Source: Escherichia coli
GTDB lineage: Bacteria; Pseudomonadota; Gammaproteobacteria; Enterobacterales; Enterobacteriaceae
Direction: 5' to 3' (one strand)
NCBI RefSeq assembly: GCF_001677475.2
Contig: NZ_CP015229.1
DNA length: 64,000 nucleotides
Shown: piece after piece, positions 95 through 26,288 of the stretch
Layout of the letters: the number at the start of each line of letters is the position of its first letter
Numbering within the stretch: position 1 is the first letter of the stretch
The notes under the pieces: model-generated
What the model saw: the letters and a program-made list of their open reading frames with translations, nothing else
The model's database searches: none
What the model was told of the DNA's origin: nothing
Position numbers and translations under genes: made by a program

Positions 95-1984
95 TTATGC
101 GCTACGACGCAGCATACCCTGTTTTTTCAGCCACACCAGCAGAATGGAGATGGCCGCAGGCGTGACGCCAGAAATACGCGAAGCCTGGCCGATAGAGGCC
201 GGTTTGTGATCGTTAAGTTTGGCGATCACTTCGTTAGAAAGACCGGATACCTGGCGGTAATCCAGCGTCGCTGGTAGCAGGGTGTTCTCGTTACGCAGCT
301 GCTTTTCGATCTCATCTTGCTGGCGCGCGATATAACCTTCGTATTTAACCTGAATCTCAACCTGTTCAGCCGCCTGATCGTCTGTCAACGCAGGGGCAAA
401 CGGCGTCAGCGTGGTTAATTTTTCATAAGTCATTTCCGGACGACGCAGCAGATCTTCACCACTGGCTTCACGGGAAAGCGGCGCAGTCAGGTGAGCATTC
501 ACTTCGGCTGCAGCTTCCGCCGACGGGGTTACCCAAGTCGATTTCAGACGCTGACGCTCACGCTCGATATTCTCAAGTTTCTCGTTAAAGCGCGCCCAAC
601 GTTCGTCATCCACCAGGCCCAGTTCACGACCGATTTCAGTCAAACGCAGATCAGCATTATCTTCGCGCAGCATCAGACGATATTCTGCGCGCGAGGTAAA
701 CATACGATACGGTTCTTTGGTTCCTAAAGTGCACAGGTCATCAACCAGTACGCCGAGATACGCCTGAGAACGCGTCGGAGCCCAACCATCTTTGTCAGCA
801 GACAGACGGGCAGCGTTAAGACCGGCCAGCAAACCTTGCGCAGCGGCTTCTTCGTAACCGGTAGTGCCGTTAATCTGACCAGCAAAGAACAGCCCCTGGA
901 TAAACTTGCTCTCCAGCGTCGGTTTCAGGTCGCGTGGATCGAAGAAGTCATACTCAATGGCATAACCTGGACGCACGATCTTCGCGTTTTCCATCCCCTG
1001 CATGGAGCGGACGATTTGCATCTGCACATCGAACGGCAGGCTGGTGGAGATACCGTTCGGATAAATTTCGTTTGAGGTCAGCCCTTCCGGTTCAAGGAAG
1101 ATCTGATGTTGATTTCTGTCGGCGAAGCGCATGACTTTGTCTTCGATCGACGGGCAGTAGCGTGGGCCGACACCTTCGATCACCCCTGCATACATTGGGC
1201 TACGATCGAGGTTACTGCGGATCACATCATGGGTTTTCTCGTTGGTATGGGTGATATAACACGGCACCTGCTGTGGATGCTGGGATGCATTACCCATAAA
1301 CGAGAATACCGGCATTGGGTTATCGCCATGCTGTTGCGCCAGCACGCTGAAGTCGATAGTACGCGCATCAATACGCGGCGGTGTCCCGGTTTTCAGACGA
1401 CCAACGCGCAGCGGCAGTTCACGCAAACGGCGAGAGAGCGGAATGGACGGCGGATCACCAGCACGACCACCGCTGTAGTTATCCAGACCGATATGAATTT
1501 TACCGTCGAGGAACGTCCCAACGGTGAGCACGACGGCTTTGGCACGGAACTTCAGTCCCATTTGGGTAACAGCACCGACCACGCGATCGTTTTCGACAAT
1601 AAGATCTTCAACCGCCTGCTGGAAGATCATCAGGTTCGGTTGGTTCTCCAGCGCCGTACGTACCGCCTGCCGGTAGAGCACACGATCCGCCTGAGCACGG
1701 GTAGCGCGAACCGCTGGTCCCTTGCTTGCGTTTAGTATCCTAAACTGGATACCCGCCTGATCGATCGCTTTCGCCATCAGACCGCCGAGTGCATCCACTT
1801 CTTTTACCAGATGTCCCTTCCCAATACCGCCGATCGCCGGGTTGCAGCTCATCTGCCCCAGCGTGTCGATATTGTGTGTCAAAAGCAGAGTCTGTTGACC
1901 CATACGCGCCGCGGCCATCGCGGCCTCGGTGCCTGCATGACCCCCGCCAATGATGATGACGTCAAAAGGATCCGGATAAAACAT
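95..1984 (-). CDS. mnmG: tRNA uridine 5-carboxymethylaminomethyl modification enzyme MnmG (GidA)
   Basis: 629-aa [28 protein letters not shown]-binding N-terminus; length and sequence match MnmG; sits next to oriC. Confidence 0.95.
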
Positions 1985-2094
1985 GGTGATTGCCTCGCAT
2001 AACGCGGTATGAAAATGGATTGAAGCCCGGGCCGTGGATTCTACTCAACTTTGTCGGCTTGAGAAAGACCTGGGATCCTGGGTATTAAAAAGAA

Positions 2095-2138
2095 GATCTA
2101 TTTATTTAGAGATCTGTTCTATTGTGATCTCTTATTAG
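2095..2138. repeat. oriC DNA-unwinding element: three tandem 13-mers (GATCTATTTATTT, GATCTGTTCTATT, GATCTCTTATTAG)
   Basis: Three GATCTnTTnTTTT-type 13-mers read directly at 2095-2107, 2111-2123, 2126-2138. Confidence 0.85.
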
Positions 2139-2151
2139 GATCGCACTGCCC

Positions 2152-2160
2152 TGTGGATAA
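2152..2160. promoter_or_regulatory. DnaA box R1 (TGTGGATAA)
   Basis: Exact 9-mer DnaA consensus (TTATCCACA on the opposite strand) immediately right of the 13-mers. Confidence 0.85.
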
Positions 2161-2331
2161 CAAGGATCCGGCTTTTAAGATCAACAACCTGGAAAGGATC
2201 ATTAACTGTGAATGATCGGTGATCCTGGACCGTATAAGCTGGGATCAGAATGAGGGGTTATACACAACTCAAAAACTGAACAACGGTTTTTCTTTGGATA
2301 ACTACCGGTTGATCCAAGCTTCCTGACAGAG

Positions 2332-2340
2332 TTATCCACA
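2332..2340. promoter_or_regulatory. DnaA box R4 (TTATCCACA)
   Basis: Exact DnaA consensus 9-mer at the right edge of oriC; further box-like 9-mers at about 2258-2266 and 2293-2301. Confidence 0.8.
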
Positions 2341-2362
2341 GTAGATCGCACGATCTGTATAC

Positions 2363-2806
2363 TTATTTGAGTAAATTAATCCACGATCCTAGCCATTCTT
2401 CTGCCGGATCTTCCGGAATGTCGTGATCAAGAATGTTGATCTTCAGTGTTTCGCCTGTCTGTTTTGCACCGGAATTTTTGAGTTCTGCCTCGAGTTTATC
2501 GATAGCCCCACAAAAGGTGTCATATTCACGACTACCAATACCGATTGCGCCAAAGCGGACCGCAGAAAGATCGGGCTTCTGTTCCTGCAATGCTTCATAG
2601 AAAGGAGAAAGGTTGTCCGGAATATCTCCGGCACCGTGGGTTGAGCTGATAACCAGCCAGATCCCAGAGGCAGATAAATCTTCCAACAGCGGACCGTGCA
2701 GCGTTTCGGTGGTAAAACCCGCCTCTTCCAGTTTTTCAGCCAGGTGTTCTGCTACATATTCGGCACCGCCGAGGGTGCTGCCGCTGATAAGAGTGATATC
2801 TGCCAT
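2363..2806 (-). CDS. mioC: FMN-binding flavodoxin-like protein MioC
   Basis: 147-aa ORF MADITLISGSTLGGAEYVAEHLAEKL; transcribed toward oriC as known for mioC. Confidence 0.93.
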   Translation of the reverse strand: MADITLISGSTLGGAEYVAEHLAEKLEEAGFTTETLHGPLLEDLSASGIWLVISSTHGAGDIPDNLSPFYEALQEQKPDLSAVRFGAIGIGSREYDTFCGAIDKLEAELKNSGAKQTGETLKINILDHDIPEDPAEEWLGSWINLLK

Positions 2807-2895
2807 AAACCGCCACCTTTATTAAGAGTGGCGTATTGTACGCTGTGAACGCGTTGGGATCTACCTGTGGAAAAGTATGGGATTAAAAAAGCCGA

Positions 2896-3354
2896 TCAGG
2901 GCTTGATGGTACGCATGATCGGGTTCTGCAGGACGATCAATGTCTCGGTGGACTGAATTTCATCAATTGTTTGGATCTTGTTGATAAGTACATGCTGGAG
3001 AGCATCGATCGAACGGCACATTACTTTGATAAAGATGCTGTAGTGGCCAGTTGTGTAATAGGCTTCAGTGACTTCATCGAGGCTTTCCAGCTTTGCCAGC
3101 GCGGAAGGATAGTCTTTGGCGCTCTTTAATATAATGCCGATAAAGCAGCCTACGTCATAACCGAGCTGCTTCGGGCTGACATCAATACGCGCCCCGGTAA
3201 TGATCCCCGCCTGCTTCATTTTCTCTACTCGAACGTGAATCGTCCCCGGACTGACGCCAAATTGTTTCGCCAGTTCAGCGTAAGCGGTGCGCGCATTGCC
3301 CATTAATGCTTCCAGGATGCCACGGTCCAGATTGTCGATCAGATAATTTTCCAT
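2896..3354 (-). CDS. asnC: Lrp/AsnC-family transcriptional regulator AsnC
   Basis: 152-aa ORF MENYLIDNLDRGILEALMGNARTAYAELAKQFGVSPGTIHVRVEKM; divergent from asnA. Confidence 0.93.
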   Translation of the reverse strand: MENYLIDNLDRGILEALMGNARTAYAELAKQFGVSPGTIHVRVEKMKQAGIITGARIDVSPKQLGYDVGCFIGIILKSAKDYPSALAKLESLDEVTEAYYTTGHYSIFIKVMCRSIDALQHVLINKIQTIDEIQSTETLIVLQNPIMRTIKP

Positions 3355-3505
3355 AGGATTTTCTTATGCGGATTGATGATTCATTCTATTTTAGCCTTCT
3401 TTTTTAATGAATCAAAAGTGAGTTAGGCTTTTTATTGAATGATTATTGCATGTGTGTCGGTTTTTGTTGCTTAATCATAAGCAACAGGACGCAGGAGTAT
3501 AAAAA

Positions 3506-4498
3506 ATGAAAACCGCTTACATTGCCAAACAACGCCAAATTAGCTTCGTGAAATCTCACTTTTCTCGTCAACTGGAAGAACGTCTGGGGCTGATCGAAGT
3601 CCAGGCGCCGATTCTTAGCCGTGTGGGGGATGGCACGCAGGATAACTTGTCGGGCTGTGAAAAAGCGGTACAGGTAAAAGTGAAAGCTCTGCCTGATGCC
3701 CAGTTCGAAGTGGTTCATTCACTGGCGAAGTGGAAACGTCAGACCTTAGGGCAACACGACTTCAGCGCGGGCGAAGGGCTGTACACGCACATGAAAGCCC
3801 TTCGCCCCGATGAAGACCGTCTTTCTCCGTTGCACTCGGTCTATGTAGACCAGTGGGACTGGGAACGCGTAATGGGCGACGGCGAGCGTCAATTCTCGAC
3901 TCTGAAAAGCACGGTAGAGGCGATCTGGGCGGGAATTAAAGCAACCGAAGCTGCGGTTAGCGAAGAGTTTGGCCTGGCACCGTTCCTGCCGGATCAGATC
4001 CACTTCGTACACAGCCAGGAGTTACTGTCTCGTTATCCGGATCTCGATGCCAAAGGGCGTGAGCGGGCGATTGCGAAAGATCTAGGCGCGGTATTCCTCG
4101 TCGGGATTGGCGGCAAGTTGAGTGATGGTCATCGTCACGACGTGCGCGCACCGGATTATGATGACTGGAGCACCCCGTCAGAGCTGGGCCATGCGGGTCT
4201 GAACGGCGATATTCTGGTATGGAACCCGGTACTGGAAGATGCGTTTGAGCTTTCTTCCATGGGGATCCGCGTGGATGCCGACACGCTGAAGCATCAGCTG
4301 GCGCTGACCGGTGACGAAGATCGCCTGGAGCTGGAGTGGCATCAGGCGCTGCTGCGCGGTGAAATGCCGCAGACCATCGGCGGCGGTATCGGGCAGTCTC
4401 GTTTGACCATGCTGCTGCTGCAACTGCCACATATCGGCCAGGTTCAGTGTGGTGTATGGCCGGCAGCTGTTCGCGAGAGCGTCCCTTCTCTGCTGTAA
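3506..4498 (+). CDS. asnA: Aspartate-ammonia ligase (asparagine synthetase A)
   Basis: 330-aa [41 protein letters not shown]; ATG at 3506 preceded by AGGAG. Confidence 0.95.
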
Positions 4499-4502
4499 TA
4501 AT

Positions 4503-5954
4503 TTATCGCCGCCAGCGTCTGAGCAGGCGGCTTCGCATCCCGGTATCAAAGCGCCAGATATGATCGAAAATGCGCATGATGCCGGGTTTGCCATGTGCCG
4601 ACATCGCCACGGCATGAAAGCGATGCTGATGTACCCGCTGCAACTCTTTCACTTTGCTCGTCACGTCGTCAGGCAACCGCTGGGCGATAAAATCAGAAAT
4701 CACCACCGCATCGGCATCAAACCATTCCCGGCTTTGCAAGCGTTCCATAATGGCGCGAAAACAACTGGCCAGATCGGTGCCGCCACGAAACTGCTGGCTT
4801 AAAAAACGGATTGCTTGTTCGATGCCTTGTGGGCCTGAAAGCTCATAACGGACGATCTCGGTGGAAAATAACATAATATAGCAGCGCCGGTTTTCAGCGA
4901 GAGCAATGCGCATCAAGGCCAGGCAGAACGCTTTCGCACACTGTTCATTAAAGCCGCCCATTGAGCCGGAAGTATCCACACAGACAATAAACGGTCCGCG
5001 CGGCTGTTCGTCGTAATCTTTATGCACCACCGGGCGTTCGATCACTTTTTCTCGCCACGACTCACCGTGCAGGCGATAGGTGAGCAACTGTTTTTCCACC
5101 AGCCGACGGTAAAACTCATACTCCAGTTCTGTTATCCCTAGTGTCGCCAGTTCTGGCGGCAGGAGACGTAAAATATCATCGCTTTGTTGCAGACCATCAA
5201 CCTGCTCAGGAACCGTCGCCGGTTCGCGCACCAGGGTGCGGAAGGTTTCCATCTGCGCATCGTTGCGCGGTATTGATTTGGCTTCCCGGGAACGCCCCAG
5301 CTGTTCTGCCAGGCGTTTCAGTTCCGGCTGTTCGTTAAGAAATTCACCGTATTTCACAATCAACTGATAGTCGCCGCGTTTAAGCTGACCGGCGCTCATA
5401 TCCCACAGACGACCAGCTGCGGTATTGTTATCTGCGAGAATGGGTTCAAGTTGCCCGCTCAGCGTCATGCGTTCCTGAACTTCACTCAACAGTTGTTCGC
5501 GTTCTTCTTCTAATAGCTGCTGATTTAGCGTCGTTGCTTGCACGATCAGACTTAAACGCCAGCGCTGGAGAAAAAGCGTGTGTAACGCTGAAGTGATCGT
5601 ACTGTTAGCATCAACCAACTGTCGGGCTTGTTCTGCCCATGGAGAATTCAGACGATGCAGTAAGTCCAGGATCTGTGGTAGCTGCACAATAAACTGCGGC
5701 GTGGAGAGGAGCTGGCTTTGCTGATAGCACATCACCTCTTCGGTGAGTTCCGGCGGGACTCGGGCATCTTTCAGCCGACTGCGCAGTGCCTCACGCCAGC
5801 GGGGAACATCATCAGTGATTGCCGCCTTCAGTCGTGGGAATTTTTCAAAGAAGACTGCCAGCTGCGGTGAGGCCAGCAGCGCGATGATCATCTCTTCGAT
5901 CAATCCCTCTTCGCTGACGGCCAGCATCACATTAAGCGTATCCAGCGTTAGCAT
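4503..5954 (-). CDS. viaA: VWA-domain protein ViaA (YieM), partner of RavA
   Basis: 483-aa ORF; VWA-like motif region ([13 protein letters not shown]); start overlaps ravA stop by 7 nt. Confidence 0.92.
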
Positions 5955-20022: not shown

Positions 20023-22925
<2,903 letters not shown>

Positions 22926-23018
22926 ACAACGCCGAAGATGTTTTGGCGGATTGAGAGAAGATTTTCAGCCTGATACAGATTAAATCAGAACGCAGAAGCG
23001 GTCTGATGAAACAGAATT

Positions 23019-23138
23019 TGCCTGGCGGCCGTAGCGCGGTGGTCCCACCTGACCCCATGCCGAACTCAGAAGTGAAACGCCGTAGCGCCGATGGTAGTGT
23101 GGGGTCTCCCCATGCGAGAGTAGGGAACTGCCAGGCAT
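23019..23138 (+). rRNA. rrfC: 5S ribosomal RNA
   Basis: TGCCTGGCGGCCGTAGCGCGGTGGTCCCACCTGACCCCATGCCGAACTCAGAAGTGAAACGCCG...CTGCCAGGCAT, 120 nt. Confidence 0.96.
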
Positions 23139-23190
23139 CAAATTAAGCAGTAAGCCGGTCATAAAACCGGTGGTTGTAAAAGAATTCGGT

Positions 23191-23267
23191 GGAGCGGTAG
23201 TTCAGTCGGTTAGAATACCTGCCTGTCACGCAGGGGGTCGCGGGTTCGAGTCCCGTCCGTTCCGCCA
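23191..23267 (+). tRNA. aspT: tRNA-Asp (GUC)
   Basis: GGAGCGGTAGTTCAGTCGGTTAGAATACCTGCCTGTCACGCAGGGGGTCGCGGGTTCGAGTCCCGTCCGTTCCGCCA, 77 nt. Confidence 0.95.
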
Positions 23268-23275
23268 CCCTAATT

Positions 23276-23351
23276 AGGGGCGTAGTTCAATTGGTAGAGC
23301 ACCGGTCTCCAAAACCGGGTGTTGGGAGTTCGAGTCTCTCCGCCCCTGCCA
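23276..23351 (+). tRNA. trpT: tRNA-Trp (CCA)
   Basis: AGGGGCGTAGTTCAATTGGTAGAGCACCGGTCTCCAAAACCGGGTGTTGGGAGTTCGAGTCTCTCCGCCCCTGCCA, 76 nt. Confidence 0.95.
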
Positions 23352-24352: not shown

Positions 24353-24369
24353 CTAATACTCCGCGCCAT
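24353..24369. promoter_or_regulatory. maoS: Candidate maoS site (CTAATACTCCGCGCCAT) for MaoP-dependent Ori macrodomain organisation
   Basis: 17-mer in the hdfR-yifE divergent intergenic region matches the maoS sequence as I remember it; recalled from memory, not searched. Confidence 0.55.
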
Positions 24370-24403: not shown

Positions 24404-24742
24404 ATGGCGGAAAGCTTTACGACGACTAATCGATATTTCGACAATAAACATTATCCACGTGGATTCTCTCGTCATGGTGATTTCACCATCAAAGAGGCAC
24501 AACTGCTTGAGCGTCATGGTTATGCCTTCAATGAGTTGGATCTTGGCAAACGCGAGCCGGTTACCGAGGAAGAGAAACTCTTCGTAGCAGTATGCCGTGG
24601 CGAACGTGAGCCAGTGACAGAAGCAGAACGCGTGTGGTCCAAGTATATGACGCGTATCAAGCGTCCAAAACGTTTTCACACCCTTTCCGGCGGTAAACCG
24701 CAGGTTGAAGGTGCTGAAGACTACACCGATTCTGACGATTAA
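24404..24742 (+). CDS. maoP: Macrodomain Ori protein MaoP (YifE, UPF0438)
   Basis: 112-aa [45 protein letters not shown]; GGAG SD upstream. Confidence 0.92.
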
Positions 24743-24743
24743 T

Positions 24744-24769
24744 AAAAAGGGCGAAATGCCCTTTTTTTT
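24744..24769. terminator. Bidirectional intrinsic terminator between yifE (+) and yifB (-)
   Basis: AATAAAAA-GGGC-GAAAT-GCCC-TTTTTTTT: short GC stem flanked by an A-run and a T-run. Confidence 0.7.
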
Positions 24770-26288
24770 ATGTCAGTAGTTTTTGCAGATGGATGAGCAA
24801 ACGGTCAATGGCACGATAGCTAACTGCCTCCTGCAAATGCTGACGTGTGATAATGTCGGACTGATCAATATCAGCAATGGTTCGTGCAACTTTCAGTAAC
24901 CGCTGCCAGGCACGAATCGATAACCCCAGATGGATCAGCGTTTCTTCCAGCCACTGCGCATCTTCGCTCTCAAGCTTGCAGAATTGGCGTATTTCCGGAC
25001 TATCCAGCCAGGCATTCAGTTTATTCTGCCGCTTAAATTGGCGCTCTCTGGCGGCCATTACGCGTTGTTTAACGGTGGCGCTGCTTTCTCCCGGCACTAC
25101 CGTTTTACTCAAAATGCCGGGTGGCGGTAATGGGATCTCCAGTGAGAGATCGAAGCGGTCGAGAAAGGGACCAGAGAGTCGGTTGAGATAACGCAGCGTT
25201 TGCTCTGGTGTGCAGCGGTTATGGTTTCCCTGATAATGTCCGGTAGGGCTGGGATTCATCGCCGCAACAAGTTGGAAACGGGCTGGATAGGTTATTTTTG
25301 CTCGTGTGCGTGAAAGATGGATCTGCCCGGATTCAATCGGCTCTCGCAAGGCATCCAGTGTACGCCGTTCAAATTCAGGTAGCTCATCAAGAAAAAGCAC
25401 GCCGTTATGCGCCAGCGAAATTTCACCTGGCCCTGGAATTGCACCACCGCCCACCATCGCAGTTAACGACGCACTGTGATGAGGTGAGCGGAACGGGCGC
25501 TGCCGCCATTGTTTTTGTACTGATTCAGCATTTACCAGACTTAATATCGCTGCGCTCTCCAGTGCCTCTTCATTGCTTAAATCTGGCAACAGGCCATTAA
25601 TACGGCTGGCGAGCATTGTTTTACCTGTTCCCGGCGGCCCAATCAGTAAAAGGTTGTGCCCGCCAGCGGCGGTAATTTCCAGTCCTCGCTTTCCTTGTTC
25701 CTGACCGACAACATCACTGAGATCATGTTGTAGCGCCCGGGATACTGTATCAGTTGGTTTCGGGCGTTCGAGAACGTGCTTACCTTCCAGAAACGCACAG
25801 ACAGCCTGCAGATGATCGGCTATCAGGCATCCTTCACCGTTAATTAGCCCCACTTCATCTTCGTTATCTTTCGCGACGATAATTTTTCTACCTGCCTTAA
25901 TAGCTTCAGTTGCACTGGAAATTGCGCCGGGAACGCCACGCAGAGCGCCTGTAAGCGCCAGTTCTCCGACTAATTCATATTCATCTAACTTATTGGCTGT
26001 AAGCTGTTCTGAGGCCGCCAGCAACGCAATGGCGATAGGTAAATCATATCGTCCCCCTTCTTTTGGCAGATCGGCTGGAGCTAGGTTGATGGTGATTTTT
26101 TTCGCCGGATATTCATATCCGCTATTGATAATGGCGCTGCGCACGCGATCGCGAGCTTCTTTTACAGTTGTTTCTGGTAAGCCCACCATCGTTAAGCCGG
26201 GTAGACCTTTACTGATATGTACCTCAACAGTGATTGGGGGCGCATTTACTCCCAGGGCTGCGCGGGTATGAACAATTGACAGTGACAT
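24768..26288 (-). CDS. yifB: Mg-chelatase-like AAA+ ATPase YifB (ComM family)
   Basis: Canonical 506-aa MSLSIVHTRAALGVNAPPITVEVHISKGLPGL from ATG 26286-26288 (ORF track extends 10 codons upstream); Walker A GPPGTGKT. Confidence 0.9.
   Translation of the reverse strand: MSLSIVHTRAALGVNAPPITVEVHISKGLPGLTMVGLPETTVKEARDRVRSAIINSGYEYPAKKITINLAPADLPKEGGRYDLPIAIALLAASEQLTANKLDEYELVGELALTGALRGVPGAISSATEAIKAGRKIIVAKDNEDEVGLINGEGCLIADHLQAVCAFLEGKHVLERPKPTDTVSRALQHDLSDVVGQEQGKRGLEITAAGGHNLLLIGPPGTGKTMLASRINGLLPDLSNEEALESAAILSLVNAESVQKQWRQRPFRSPHHSASLTAMVGGGAIPGPGEISLAHNGVLFLDELPEFERRTLDALREPIESGQIHLSRTRAKITYPARFQLVAAMNPSPTGHYQGNHNRCTPEQTLRYLNRLSGPFLDRFDLSLEIPLPPPGILSKTVVPGESSATVKQRVMAARERQFKRQNKLNAWLDSPEIRQFCKLESEDAQWLEETLIHLGLSIRAWQRLLKVARTIADIDQSDIITRQHLQEAVSYRAIDRLLIHLQKLLT

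What the first reader, a model, noticed from the sequence alone, without database searches (positions are those of the whole stretch)
24768..26288. yifB/comM: Mg-chelatase-like AAA+ protein whose E. coli role is uncharacterised
The 506-aa YifB belongs to the ComM family, which in naturally competent bacteria acts as a helicase in transformation-associated recombination. Its function in E. coli is not established. It sits beside the ilv promoter region and converges on the yifE/maoP terminator.
Basis: established knowledge. Interest (0 to 1): 0.25.

Follow-up and report, generated by a model that had tools for sequence, protein, structure and literature searches.

The report
E. coli yifB, a ComM-type recombination helicase gene
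This is the ordinary, intact E. coli core gene yifB, the counterpart of the ComM DNA helicase that helps other bacteria integrate DNA taken up from outside; the one unexpected detail is that its lineage has lost the small zinc-binding loop most ComM proteins carry.

Summary
Window 24768..26288 (- strand) encodes a 506-aa protein that matches NCBIfam's YifB equivalog end to end (1142 bits, cutoff 530). It is 48% identical to Legionella ComM, and an AlphaFold model superposes on that cryo-EM structure (TM 0.88-0.93).

All ATPase residues are intact: Walker A K223/T224, Walker B D301/E302, sensor-3 R315, R378 and arginine finger R459. The N-terminal Lon-like domain lacks the protease Ser-Lys dyad (R80, I123), so the database name "ATP-dependent protease" is wrong. 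dN/dS is 0.04, and 5422 of 5426 complete E. coli genomes carry the gene essentially full length, so it is not degenerate.

The window's only exact match to the E. coli CRP-S consensus (TGCGA-N6-TTCCA) lies about 127 nt upstream of the ATG. It is conserved in Citrobacter and Enterobacter, which fits published Sxy/CRP control.

One addition: the C4 zinc finger embedded in ComM's AAA+ domain is absent here. It is also absent from every sampled Enterobacterales, Pasteurellaceae (including H. influenzae), Vibrio and Alteromonadales sequence. About 86% of other ComM representatives keep it. The loss is therefore an old clade trait that transformable species share.

This is an ordinary, already known gene. 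The E. coli phenotype remains untested.

The parts
24768..26288 (-). yifB/comM coding sequence, 506 aa plus TAA stop
   Evidence: ORF. NCBIfam NF007365, 1142.5 bits against a cutoff of 530, aligned 1-506/506. RefSeq annotation of the orthologous locus.
25779..26288 (-). [quoted passage not shown] It carries the DNA-contact residues K43, R46 and K64.
   Evidence: Pfam PF13541 over aa 21-142. In the alignment to B. subtilis Lon (3m6a), R80 sits at the catalytic Ser and I123 at the catalytic Lys. K43/K46/K64 of Legionella ComM map to K43/R46/K64.
25131..25724 (-). AAA+ ATPase core of the MCM/Mg-chelatase type (aa 189-386)
   Evidence: Pfam PF01078, E = 1.3e-89, plus a partial MCM P-loop match. 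Fold matches to ComM, then BchI and MCM.
25617..25640 (-). Walker A motif GPPGTGKT (aa 217-224; K223, T224)
   Evidence: Motif scan. Maps to K224/T225 of Legionella ComM. Invariant in 125 homologues.
25383..25400 (-). Walker B motif VLFLDE (aa 297-302; D301, E302)
   Evidence: D301 and E302 are invariant in 125 homologues.
25209..25256 (-). Loop NPSPTGHYQGNHNRCT (aa 345-360), which replaces the C4 zinc finger (NPCPCG...CxC) of most ComM proteins
   Evidence: Only one Cys (C359) remains, and that position varies (C/A/S/N/T) among Enterobacteriaceae. 127 of 147 family representatives have at least 3 Cys here. Model pLDDT is about 86 in this block.
24912..24914 (-). Codon for R459, the trans-acting arginine finger (equivalent to R463 of Legionella ComM)
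   Evidence: Pairwise mapping. Invariant in 125 homologues. The residue's role is described in PMC11612176.
24813..25091 (-). C-terminal Mg_chelatase_C lid domain (aa 400-492). With the C-terminal helix, it carries L454 and R496, the equivalents of the V. cholerae ComM DprA-interface residues L455 and R497.
   Evidence: Pfam PF13335. Mapping via Vibrio hannami ComM, which shares V. cholerae numbering (K224, L455, R497). The interface is described in PMC12012524.
26293..26299 (-). Shine-Dalgarno sequence AAGGAGG, 4 nt upstream of the ATG at 26288
   Evidence: Sequence. GGAGG is conserved in the Escherichia, Citrobacter and Enterobacter rows.
26408..26423 (-). Candidate CRP-S (Sxy-dependent CRP) site TGCGAGCATCATTCCA. 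Its centre lies about 127 nt upstream of the ATG.
   Evidence: This is the only exact match to the E. coli CRP-S consensus TGCGA-N6-TTCCA in 64 kb on both strands (0.25 expected). The consensus is quoted in PMC6728893. The site is conserved in E. albertii, Citrobacter (TGCGAGCGTTATTCCT) and Enterobacter (TGCGATCGTCTTTCCA) while the flanks diverge.
24744..24766 (.). Bidirectional intrinsic terminator shared by yifB and maoP: GGGC-loop-GCCC flanked by A and T runs
   Evidence: Terminator scan. RNA fold of the yifB-sense strand gives -12.1 kcal/mol, z = -4.8, and 0 of 200 shuffles fold as well.

Best explanation
yifB encodes E. coli's orthologue of ComM. ComM is a ring-forming AAA+ DNA motor with an inactive N-terminal Lon-like domain, an MCM/Mg-chelatase-type ATPase core and a C-terminal lid. 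By homology, six subunits assemble around DNA when ATP and DNA are present. ATP bound at K223/T224/D301/E302 of one subunit is sensed by R315 and R459 of its neighbour, and pore loops together with K43/R46/K64 of the Lon tier grip the DNA. The ring then drives three-strand branch migration, which lengthens the RecA-made heteroduplex between incoming single-stranded DNA and the chromosome. DprA (Smf) is expected to recruit it through the C-terminal surface that includes L454 and R496. Transcription is expected to stay off unless Sxy (TfoX) and cAMP-CRP act at the CRP-S site at 26408-26423. This would explain why no phenotype is seen in laboratory cultures. Shown here: gene integrity, family, fold, the conserved catalytic, DNA-contact and DprA-contact residues, purifying selection, and the presence and conservation of the CRP-S motif. 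Inferred from orthologues (V. cholerae, H. influenzae, A. baylyi, L. pneumophila): helicase and branch-migration activity, hexamer formation, DprA loading and the biological role. The protein belongs to a ComM subclade that lacks the embedded C4 zinc finger.
For: Full-length equivalog match and three-domain Pfam architecture. 48% identity to Legionella ComM at E = 1e-141. AlphaFold model with pLDDT 95.4 and pTM 0.92 that superposes on 8rxt/8rxd at TM 0.88-0.93, rmsd 2.3-2.6 A, over about 495 residues. Every catalytic and DNA-contact residue named for Legionella ComM in PMC11612176 is conserved except the adenine-contact K195, which is V194 here. 59% identity to H. influenzae and P. multocida ComM and to Vibrio ComM, with L455/R497 conserved as L454/R496. 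dN/dS is 0.039 against E. albertii and 0.044 against Citrobacter. The gene is present in 5425 of 5426 complete E. coli genomes and essentially full length in 5422. There is a unique exact CRP-S consensus upstream, footprinted across genera. Literature: comM (b3765) is treated as a CRP-S regulon gene in E. coli (PMC1635313); E. coli competence homologues are Sxy-induced (PMC3330819, PMC6728893); ComM helicase and branch-migration activity (PMC6158740); DprA recruitment (PMC12012524).
Against: No E. coli YifB biochemistry or transformation phenotype exists. Natural chromosomal transformation has never been shown in E. coli, and Sxy-induced uptake gave transformants only when lambda Red supplied recombination (PMC3330819), so the native recombination arm may be ineffective. 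Strong purifying selection in a species not known to transform may point to another, unknown role. The zinc finger present in the only solved ComM is missing here. A recurrent yifB frameshift in laboratory evolution, with a growth effect (PMC6389913), is not explained by a competence-only role. The primary paper on Sxy induction (Sinha et al. 2009) could not be read.
Confidence: 0.78

Rival explanations
1. YifB has a main role in E. coli that is unrelated to transformation. Examples would be a branch-migration or fork-remodelling helicase in repair or replication restart, or processing of imported DNA used as a nutrient. On this view the competence link is only ancestral.
For: dN/dS of about 0.04 and near-universal retention in a species with no demonstrated natural transformation. 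ComM is conserved in many non-competent species, and the authors of PMC6158740 raise this possibility. comM (b3765) is reported as UV-induced (cited in PMC1635313). A yifB frameshift arose in two independent evolution lines and changed growth rate (PMC6389913).
Against: No LexA box lies in the yifB upstream region, whereas a CRP-S site does. A V. cholerae comM mutant is not sensitive to MMS or mitomycin C (PMC6158740). yifB deletion had no effect on Ori macrodomain behaviour although the gene sits beside maoP/maoS (PMC5023128). The DprA-interface residues are conserved.
Confidence: 0.15
2. YifB is an ATP-dependent protease of the Lon type, as many database entries name it, or a magnesium chelatase subunit.
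For: Source names such as 'ATP-dependent protease' and 'magnesium chelatase family protein'. Weak sequence similarity of aa 12-149 to Lon proteolytic domains (E = 0.002-0.006) and of the AAA+ core to BchI/ChlI.
Against: The Lon catalytic Ser and Lys positions are occupied by R80 and I123. LonB equivalog models score 37-40 bits against cutoffs of 517-723, and BchI-ChlI scores 24 bits against 467. The solved homologue is a DNA-bound helicase.
Confidence: 0.02
3. yifB is a decaying relic of a lost competence system. The missing zinc finger would mark loss of function.
For: Three of the four zinc-finger cysteines are replaced. E. coli is not naturally transformable in the laboratory (PMC3330819).
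Against: The same cysteine-less loop occurs in all 117 Pasteurellaceae ComM proteins examined that carry the loop, including H. influenzae-labelled sequences, and in Vibrio, so it is shared with transformable species. dN/dS is 0.04. All catalytic residues are intact. The gene is full length in 5422 of 5426 genomes, and one exception examined is an IS91 insertion.
Confidence: 0.03

Closest known systems
ComM of Legionella pneumophila (PDB 8rxd, 8rxt, 8rxs, 8rxk; EMBO J 2024, PMC11612176)
   Same: Same length and three-domain order. 48% identity, TM 0.88-0.93. Conserved Walker A/B, sensor-3 Arg, R378 (Legionella R381), arginine finger and Lon-tier DNA-contact residues.
   Different: Legionella has the C4 motif NPCPCGQWGNSQANCMCTP. 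E. coli has NPSPTGHYQGNHNRCTP, which is 2 residues shorter and keeps one non-conserved Cys. The adenine-contact K195 is V194 in E. coli.
ComM of Vibrio cholerae and Haemophilus influenzae, the genetically and (for V. cholerae) biochemically characterised transformation helicases (PMC6158740, PMC12012524)
   Same: 59% identity to the H. influenzae/P. multocida and Vibrio orthologues. Same cysteine-less loop. DprA-interface residues L455/R497 are conserved as L454/R496. CRP-S/Sxy-type regulation.
   Different: These hosts are naturally transformable and their comM mutants have a phenotype; E. coli has neither. The Vibrio sequence examined was V. hannami, not V. cholerae itself.
RadA/Sms
   Same: A hexameric branch-migration motor that also pairs an ATPase ring with an inactive Lon-like ring. 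It does the equivalent job in Gram-positive transformation (PMC11612176).
   Different: It has a RecA-type rather than an AAA+ ATPase, the opposite domain order and an N-terminal rather than embedded zinc finger. Only a marginal match to the Lon-like domain was seen (E = 0.53).
BchI/ChlI magnesium chelatase subunit and MCM helicases
   Same: Same AAA+ clade. Partial core alignments (aa 286-347 to BchI; aa 287-383 to MCM) and fold matches at E of about 1e-12 to 1e-13.
   Different: 15-22% identity and TM 0.35-0.43. They have no Lon-like N-domain, and the curated family cutoffs are missed by a wide margin.

Membership tests
ComM / YifB family (NCBIfam NF007365, TIGR00368) | Full-length match above the curated equivalog cutoff | tested here: met
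   NF007365 scores 1142.5 bits against a cutoff of 530, aligned 1-506/506. TIGR00368 scores 830.5 against 362.4.
ComM / YifB family | Domain order: Lon-like N-domain, long linker, AAA+ core, Mg_chelatase_C lid | tested here: met
   Pfam PF13541 (aa 21-142), PF01078 (189-386) and PF13335 (400-492). The model superposes on 8rxd/8rxt over the full length.
ComM / YifB family | Intact ATPase site: Walker A Lys/Thr, Walker B Asp/Glu, sensor-3 Arg, trans arginine finger | tested here: met
   K223, T224, D301, E302, R315, R378 and R459 all align with the Legionella residues and are invariant in 125 homologues.
ComM / YifB family | C4 zinc finger embedded in the AAA+ domain (predicted for ComM in PMC11612176) | tested here: not met
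   The loop is NPSPTGHYQGNHNRCT, with one variable Cys. The finger is also absent from H. influenzae, other Pasteurellaceae, Vibrio and Alteromonadales ComM. It is therefore typical of the family (about 86% of representatives) but not required for membership or for function in transformation.
ComM / YifB family | ATP- and DNA-dependent hexamerisation, helicase and three-strand branch-migration activity | not testable with these tools
   Known for V. cholerae ComM (PMC6158740) and Legionella ComM (PMC11612176). Only inferred here.
ComM / YifB family | Needed for integration (not uptake) of transforming DNA | not testable with these tools
   No natural transformation assay exists for E. coli without lambda Red (PMC3330819).
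ComM / YifB family | DprA-binding surface on the C-terminal domain | tested here: inconclusive
   L454 and R496 are conserved relative to V. cholerae L455/R497. However, the interface is reported to differ between species (PMC12012524), and no interaction was modelled here.
Sxy/CRP-S competence regulon of gamma-proteobacteria | A CRP-S site (E. coli form TGCGA-N6-TTCCA) in the promoter region | tested here: met
   Unique exact match at 26408-26423 on the gene's strand, conserved across three further genera. Sxy-dependent induction itself was not testable here.
Lon / LonB ATP-dependent protease | Catalytic Ser-Lys dyad in the proteolytic domain, and a curated family score | tested here: not met
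   R80 and I123 occupy the dyad positions. LonB models score 37-40 bits against cutoffs of 517-723.
Magnesium chelatase subunit I (BchI/ChlI) | Equivalog-level match to TIGR02030 | tested here: not met
   24.1 bits against a cutoff of 466.95, covering aa 285-347 only.

The most novel reading that the evidence does not exclude
The embedded C4 zinc finger of ComM was lost once, in the common ancestor of Enterobacterales, Pasteurellales, Vibrionales and Alteromonadales, and was replaced by a shorter cysteine-free loop. Every sampled member of that clade lacks it, and sister gamma-proteobacteria such as Kangiella, Pseudomonas, Marinobacter and Cellvibrio keep it. If the finger controls ring assembly or loading, the two ComM types may differ mechanistically. 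For example, the zinc-finger type (Legionella) was solved as a hexamer without DNA, whereas the finger-less Vibrio type is reported as monomeric until ATP and ssDNA are present. I found no statement of this split in the papers read, but my search was limited.
Probability: 0.3. Interest if true: 0.4.

Novelty: already known. Interest (0 to 1): 0.15.

Why it matters
[quoted passage not shown] Its value is as a clean annotation: call it a ComM-type helicase, not a protease or Mg chelatase. It also bears on the old question of why E. coli keeps a complete, selected competence gene set without detectable transformation. The clade-wide loss of the zinc finger offers a simple natural experiment on what that unresolved element does in ComM.

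Tried and rejected
1. The palindromic Haemophilus-type CRP-S core TGCGA-N6-TCGCA with up to 2 mismatches gave 32 hits against 44.6 expected, so it is uninformative. The asymmetric E. coli consensus was used instead.
2. The LexA box search (CTGT-N8-ACAG, up to 1 mismatch) gave no hit in the yifB upstream region and 20 hits against 18.5 expected overall. The reported UV induction is not explained by an SOS box here.
3. The sigma-70 scan gave no convincing yifB promoter, with 3 hits against 3.1 expected. Hand inspection of TTGCAC/TAAAAT gave a 21-nt spacer, so I do not name a -35/-10 or a transcription start.
4. Taxon names for the nearest 50%-identity representatives were mostly missing. Named sequences came instead from a query recalled from memory for H. 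influenzae ComM; only the database hits were used as evidence. A profile of the cysteine-less representatives and a genome scan added more.
5. V. cholerae ComM itself was never retrieved. Vibrio hannami, which has the same K224/L455/R497 numbering, serves as proxy.
6. Sinha et al. 2009 (PMC2725579) is not held. Its consensus and conclusions are cited second-hand from PMC6728893 and PMC3330819.
7. The protease and chelatase readings were rejected.
8. A link between yifB and the adjacent MaoP/maoS system was rejected, because the published deletion has no effect.

Full report
**Observation**

The window has one long ORF on the minus strand, 24768..26318, which is 516 aa from the first ATG. That start is the real one:
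- AAGGAGG lies 4 nt upstream of it.
- The NCBIfam YifB equivalog aligns residues 1-506 of 506.
- Legionella ComM and all close homologues begin at the same Met-Ser-Leu.
- The 10-codon extension is not kept in frame in Citrobacter or Enterobacter.
- RefSeq annotates the identical 1521-nt CDS as yifB in E. coli.

maoP (yifE, 24404..24742, +) converges on yifB. The 25-nt gap holds a GC hairpin flanked by A and T runs (24744..24766) that reads as an intrinsic terminator on both strands (-12.1 kcal/mol, z = -4.8 on the yifB strand). The ilvL leader starts at 26641 on the other strand.

**What the gene is**

Pfam finds the three ComM domains: ChlI (the Lon-like N-domain, aa 21-142), Mg_chelatase (the AAA+ core, aa 189-386) and Mg_chelatase_C (aa 400-492). 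NCBIfam's equivalog NF007365 scores 1142.5 bits against a cutoff of 530.

The best solved relative is Legionella pneumophila ComM (8rxd and related entries), at E = 1.2e-141 and 48% identity. An AlphaFold2 model built on 125 homologues is confident (pLDDT 95.4, pTM 0.92). It superposes on ComM chains at TM 0.88-0.93 and rmsd 2.3-2.6 A over about 495 residues. BchI and MCM subunits follow far behind, at TM 0.35-0.43.

Every residue assigned a catalytic role in Legionella ComM (PMC11612176) is present. This covers Walker A K223/T224, Walker B D301/E302, sensor-3 R315, R378 and the trans arginine finger R459. The Lon-tier DNA contacts are present as K43, R46 (Lys to Arg) and K64. Only the adenine-contact K195 differs, being V194 here. 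These positions are invariant across 125 homologues.

dN/dS is 0.039 against E. albertii and 0.044 against Citrobacter. The gene is found in 5425 of 5426 complete E. coli genomes and is contiguous over at least 80% of its length in 5422. One exception that I examined is split by an IS91 element. The gene is not degenerate.

**Names to discard**

Many database entries call this protein an ATP-dependent protease or a magnesium chelatase. Aligned to Lon proteolytic domains, the catalytic Ser and Lys positions are R80 and I123. The LonB and BchI-ChlI equivalog models fall far below their cutoffs. Both names are rejected.

**Regulation**

The E. coli form of the Sxy-dependent CRP site is TGCGA-N6-TTCCA (Sinha et al. 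2009, as quoted in PMC6728893). It has exactly one perfect match in the 64-kb window on either strand (0.25 expected). That match is at 26408-26423, on the yifB strand, with its centre about 127 nt upstream of the ATG.

The motif is kept in E. albertii, Citrobacter (TGCGAGCGTTATTCCT) and Enterobacter (TGCGATCGTCTTTCCA), while the flanking sequence diverges. This agrees with published work that treats comM (b3765) as part of a CRP-S competence regulon in E. coli (PMC1635313) and reports Sxy induction of E. coli's competence homologues (PMC3330819).

I found no LexA box upstream. I could not name a promoter with confidence.

**The one departure from the textbook protein**

ComM is described as having a zinc finger embedded in its AAA+ domain (PMC11612176). 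In Legionella the motif is NPCPCGQWGNSQANCMCTP. Here the loop is NPSPTGHYQGNHNRCTP, with one Cys left. That Cys varies (C/A/S/N/T) among 120 Enterobacteriaceae clusters.

Among 147 representatives of the family at 50% identity, 127 have at least 3 Cys in this loop and 20 have none or one. A scan of species-representative genomes gave 80 named loci:
- All 14 loci from one group lack the finger. They are Escherichia, Citrobacter, Enterobacter, Photorhabdus, Orbaceae, Haemophilus, Rodentibacter, Vibrio, Colwellia, an Alteromonadaceae MAG, Psychromonas, Shewanella, Pseudoalteromonas and Pseudidiomarina.
- 64 of the other 66 keep four cysteines. These include Kangiella, Pseudomonas, Cellvibrio, Marinobacter, Vreelandella, the Xanthomonadales and all Betaproteobacteria.
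- The two remaining losses, in Thiomicrorhabdus and a Verrucomicrobiales MAG, look independent.

All 117 Pasteurellaceae ComM clusters in which the loop could be extracted have no Cys there. This includes sequences labelled H. influenzae. Of 114 mostly Alteromonadales clusters, 99 have none and 15 have one.

The loss is therefore an old trait of the Enterobacterales-Pasteurellales-Vibrionales-Alteromonadales clade. Species whose comM is required for transformation share it, so it does not mark decay in E. coli. I did not see this split stated in the papers I read, but my literature search was limited.

**Mechanism**

By homology, YifB should form an ATP- and DNA-dependent hexameric ring that drives three-strand branch migration and so extends RecA-made heteroduplex (PMC6158740, PMC11612176). 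DprA should load it. The V. cholerae interface residues L455 and R497 (PMC12012524) are conserved as L454 and R496. I mapped them through Vibrio hannami ComM, which shares the V. cholerae numbering. These steps are inferred, not shown.

**What stays open**

The E. coli phenotype is the open point. Natural transformation has not been demonstrated in E. coli, and Sxy-induced uptake yielded transformants only with lambda Red (PMC3330819). A V. cholerae comM mutant is not damage-sensitive. yifB deletion does not affect the neighbouring MaoP/maoS system. An unexplained recurrent yifB frameshift appeared in laboratory evolution. A role outside transformation therefore remains possible; I put it at about 0.15.

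**Verdict**

The finding is correct and ordinary. The additions here are the CRP-S site, the rejection of the protease and chelatase names, the evidence of strong purifying selection, and the clade-wide absence of the zinc finger.

Noticed in passing
window 26879-28525 (+): ilvG is an intact 548-aa ORF. In E. coli K-12 it is frameshifted (from my own knowledge), so the window is not from a K-12 lineage.
   Followed up: partly
window 24353-24369 (+): An exact copy of the 17-nt maoS site CTAATACTCCGCGCCAT lies in the hdfR-maoP intergenic region. It is unique in the window, and the sequence was checked against PMC5023128.
   Followed up: yes
window 24768-26288: This yifB allele is at most 98.9% identical to any of 5425 complete E. 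coli genomes, and the rows sampled across the ranking run from 98.9% down to 97.1%. The source strain's lineage is therefore poorly represented among complete RefSeq genomes.
   Followed up: partly
window 26570-26859 (+): The ilvL leader / ilvG 5' region matches Rfam RF02744 (Rev39_5p_UTR) at 153.6 bits against a gathering score of 88.
   Followed up: no
window 26289-26318 (-): An upstream in-frame ATG would extend the ORF to 516 aa. It has no Shine-Dalgarno sequence and is not conserved in frame in Citrobacter or Enterobacter.
   Followed up: partly
L082 (E. coli 2015C-3101, NZ_CP027221.1) 1555-4903: This is a rare natural knockout. yifB is split into two pseudogene pieces by an IS91-family transposase plus a hypothetical gene. 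yifB is also listed among genes interrupted by integrative elements in PMC7192596.
   Followed up: yes
L022 and L019: MAG records titled 'Klebsiella pneumoniae' and 'Bordetella parapertussis' carry zinc-finger-type ComM genes only 50-52% identical to E. coli YifB. A genuine Klebsiella YifB is 79% identical. The L022 contig at least is probably mis-binned or mislabelled.
   Followed up: no
L057 (Thiomicrorhabdus sp.) and L079 (Verrucomicrobiales MAG): The ComM zinc-finger cysteines appear to have been lost independently outside the Enterobacterales-Vibrionales-Alteromonadales clade.
   Followed up: no
Literature: PMC6389913: A yifB frameshift insertion arose during adaptive laboratory evolution of both MG1655 and the reduced-genome strain MS56, yet alone it cut growth rate to 69%. 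This is unexplained. It may reflect a mutational hotspot, a polar effect on ilv or maoP, or an unknown function.
   Followed up: no
window 22500-23348 (+): The end of an rRNA operon (23S 3' end, 5S, then two tRNAs, annotated Asp and Trp in the E. coli orthologous locus) lies just upstream of hdfR.
   Followed up: no
PDB 8rxd chain sequence versus PMC11612176 text: The paper names the catalytic glutamate E302. In the chain sequence as printed in the alignment, position 302 is Asp and 303 is Glu. This is a one-residue numbering discrepancy of no consequence here.
   Followed up: no
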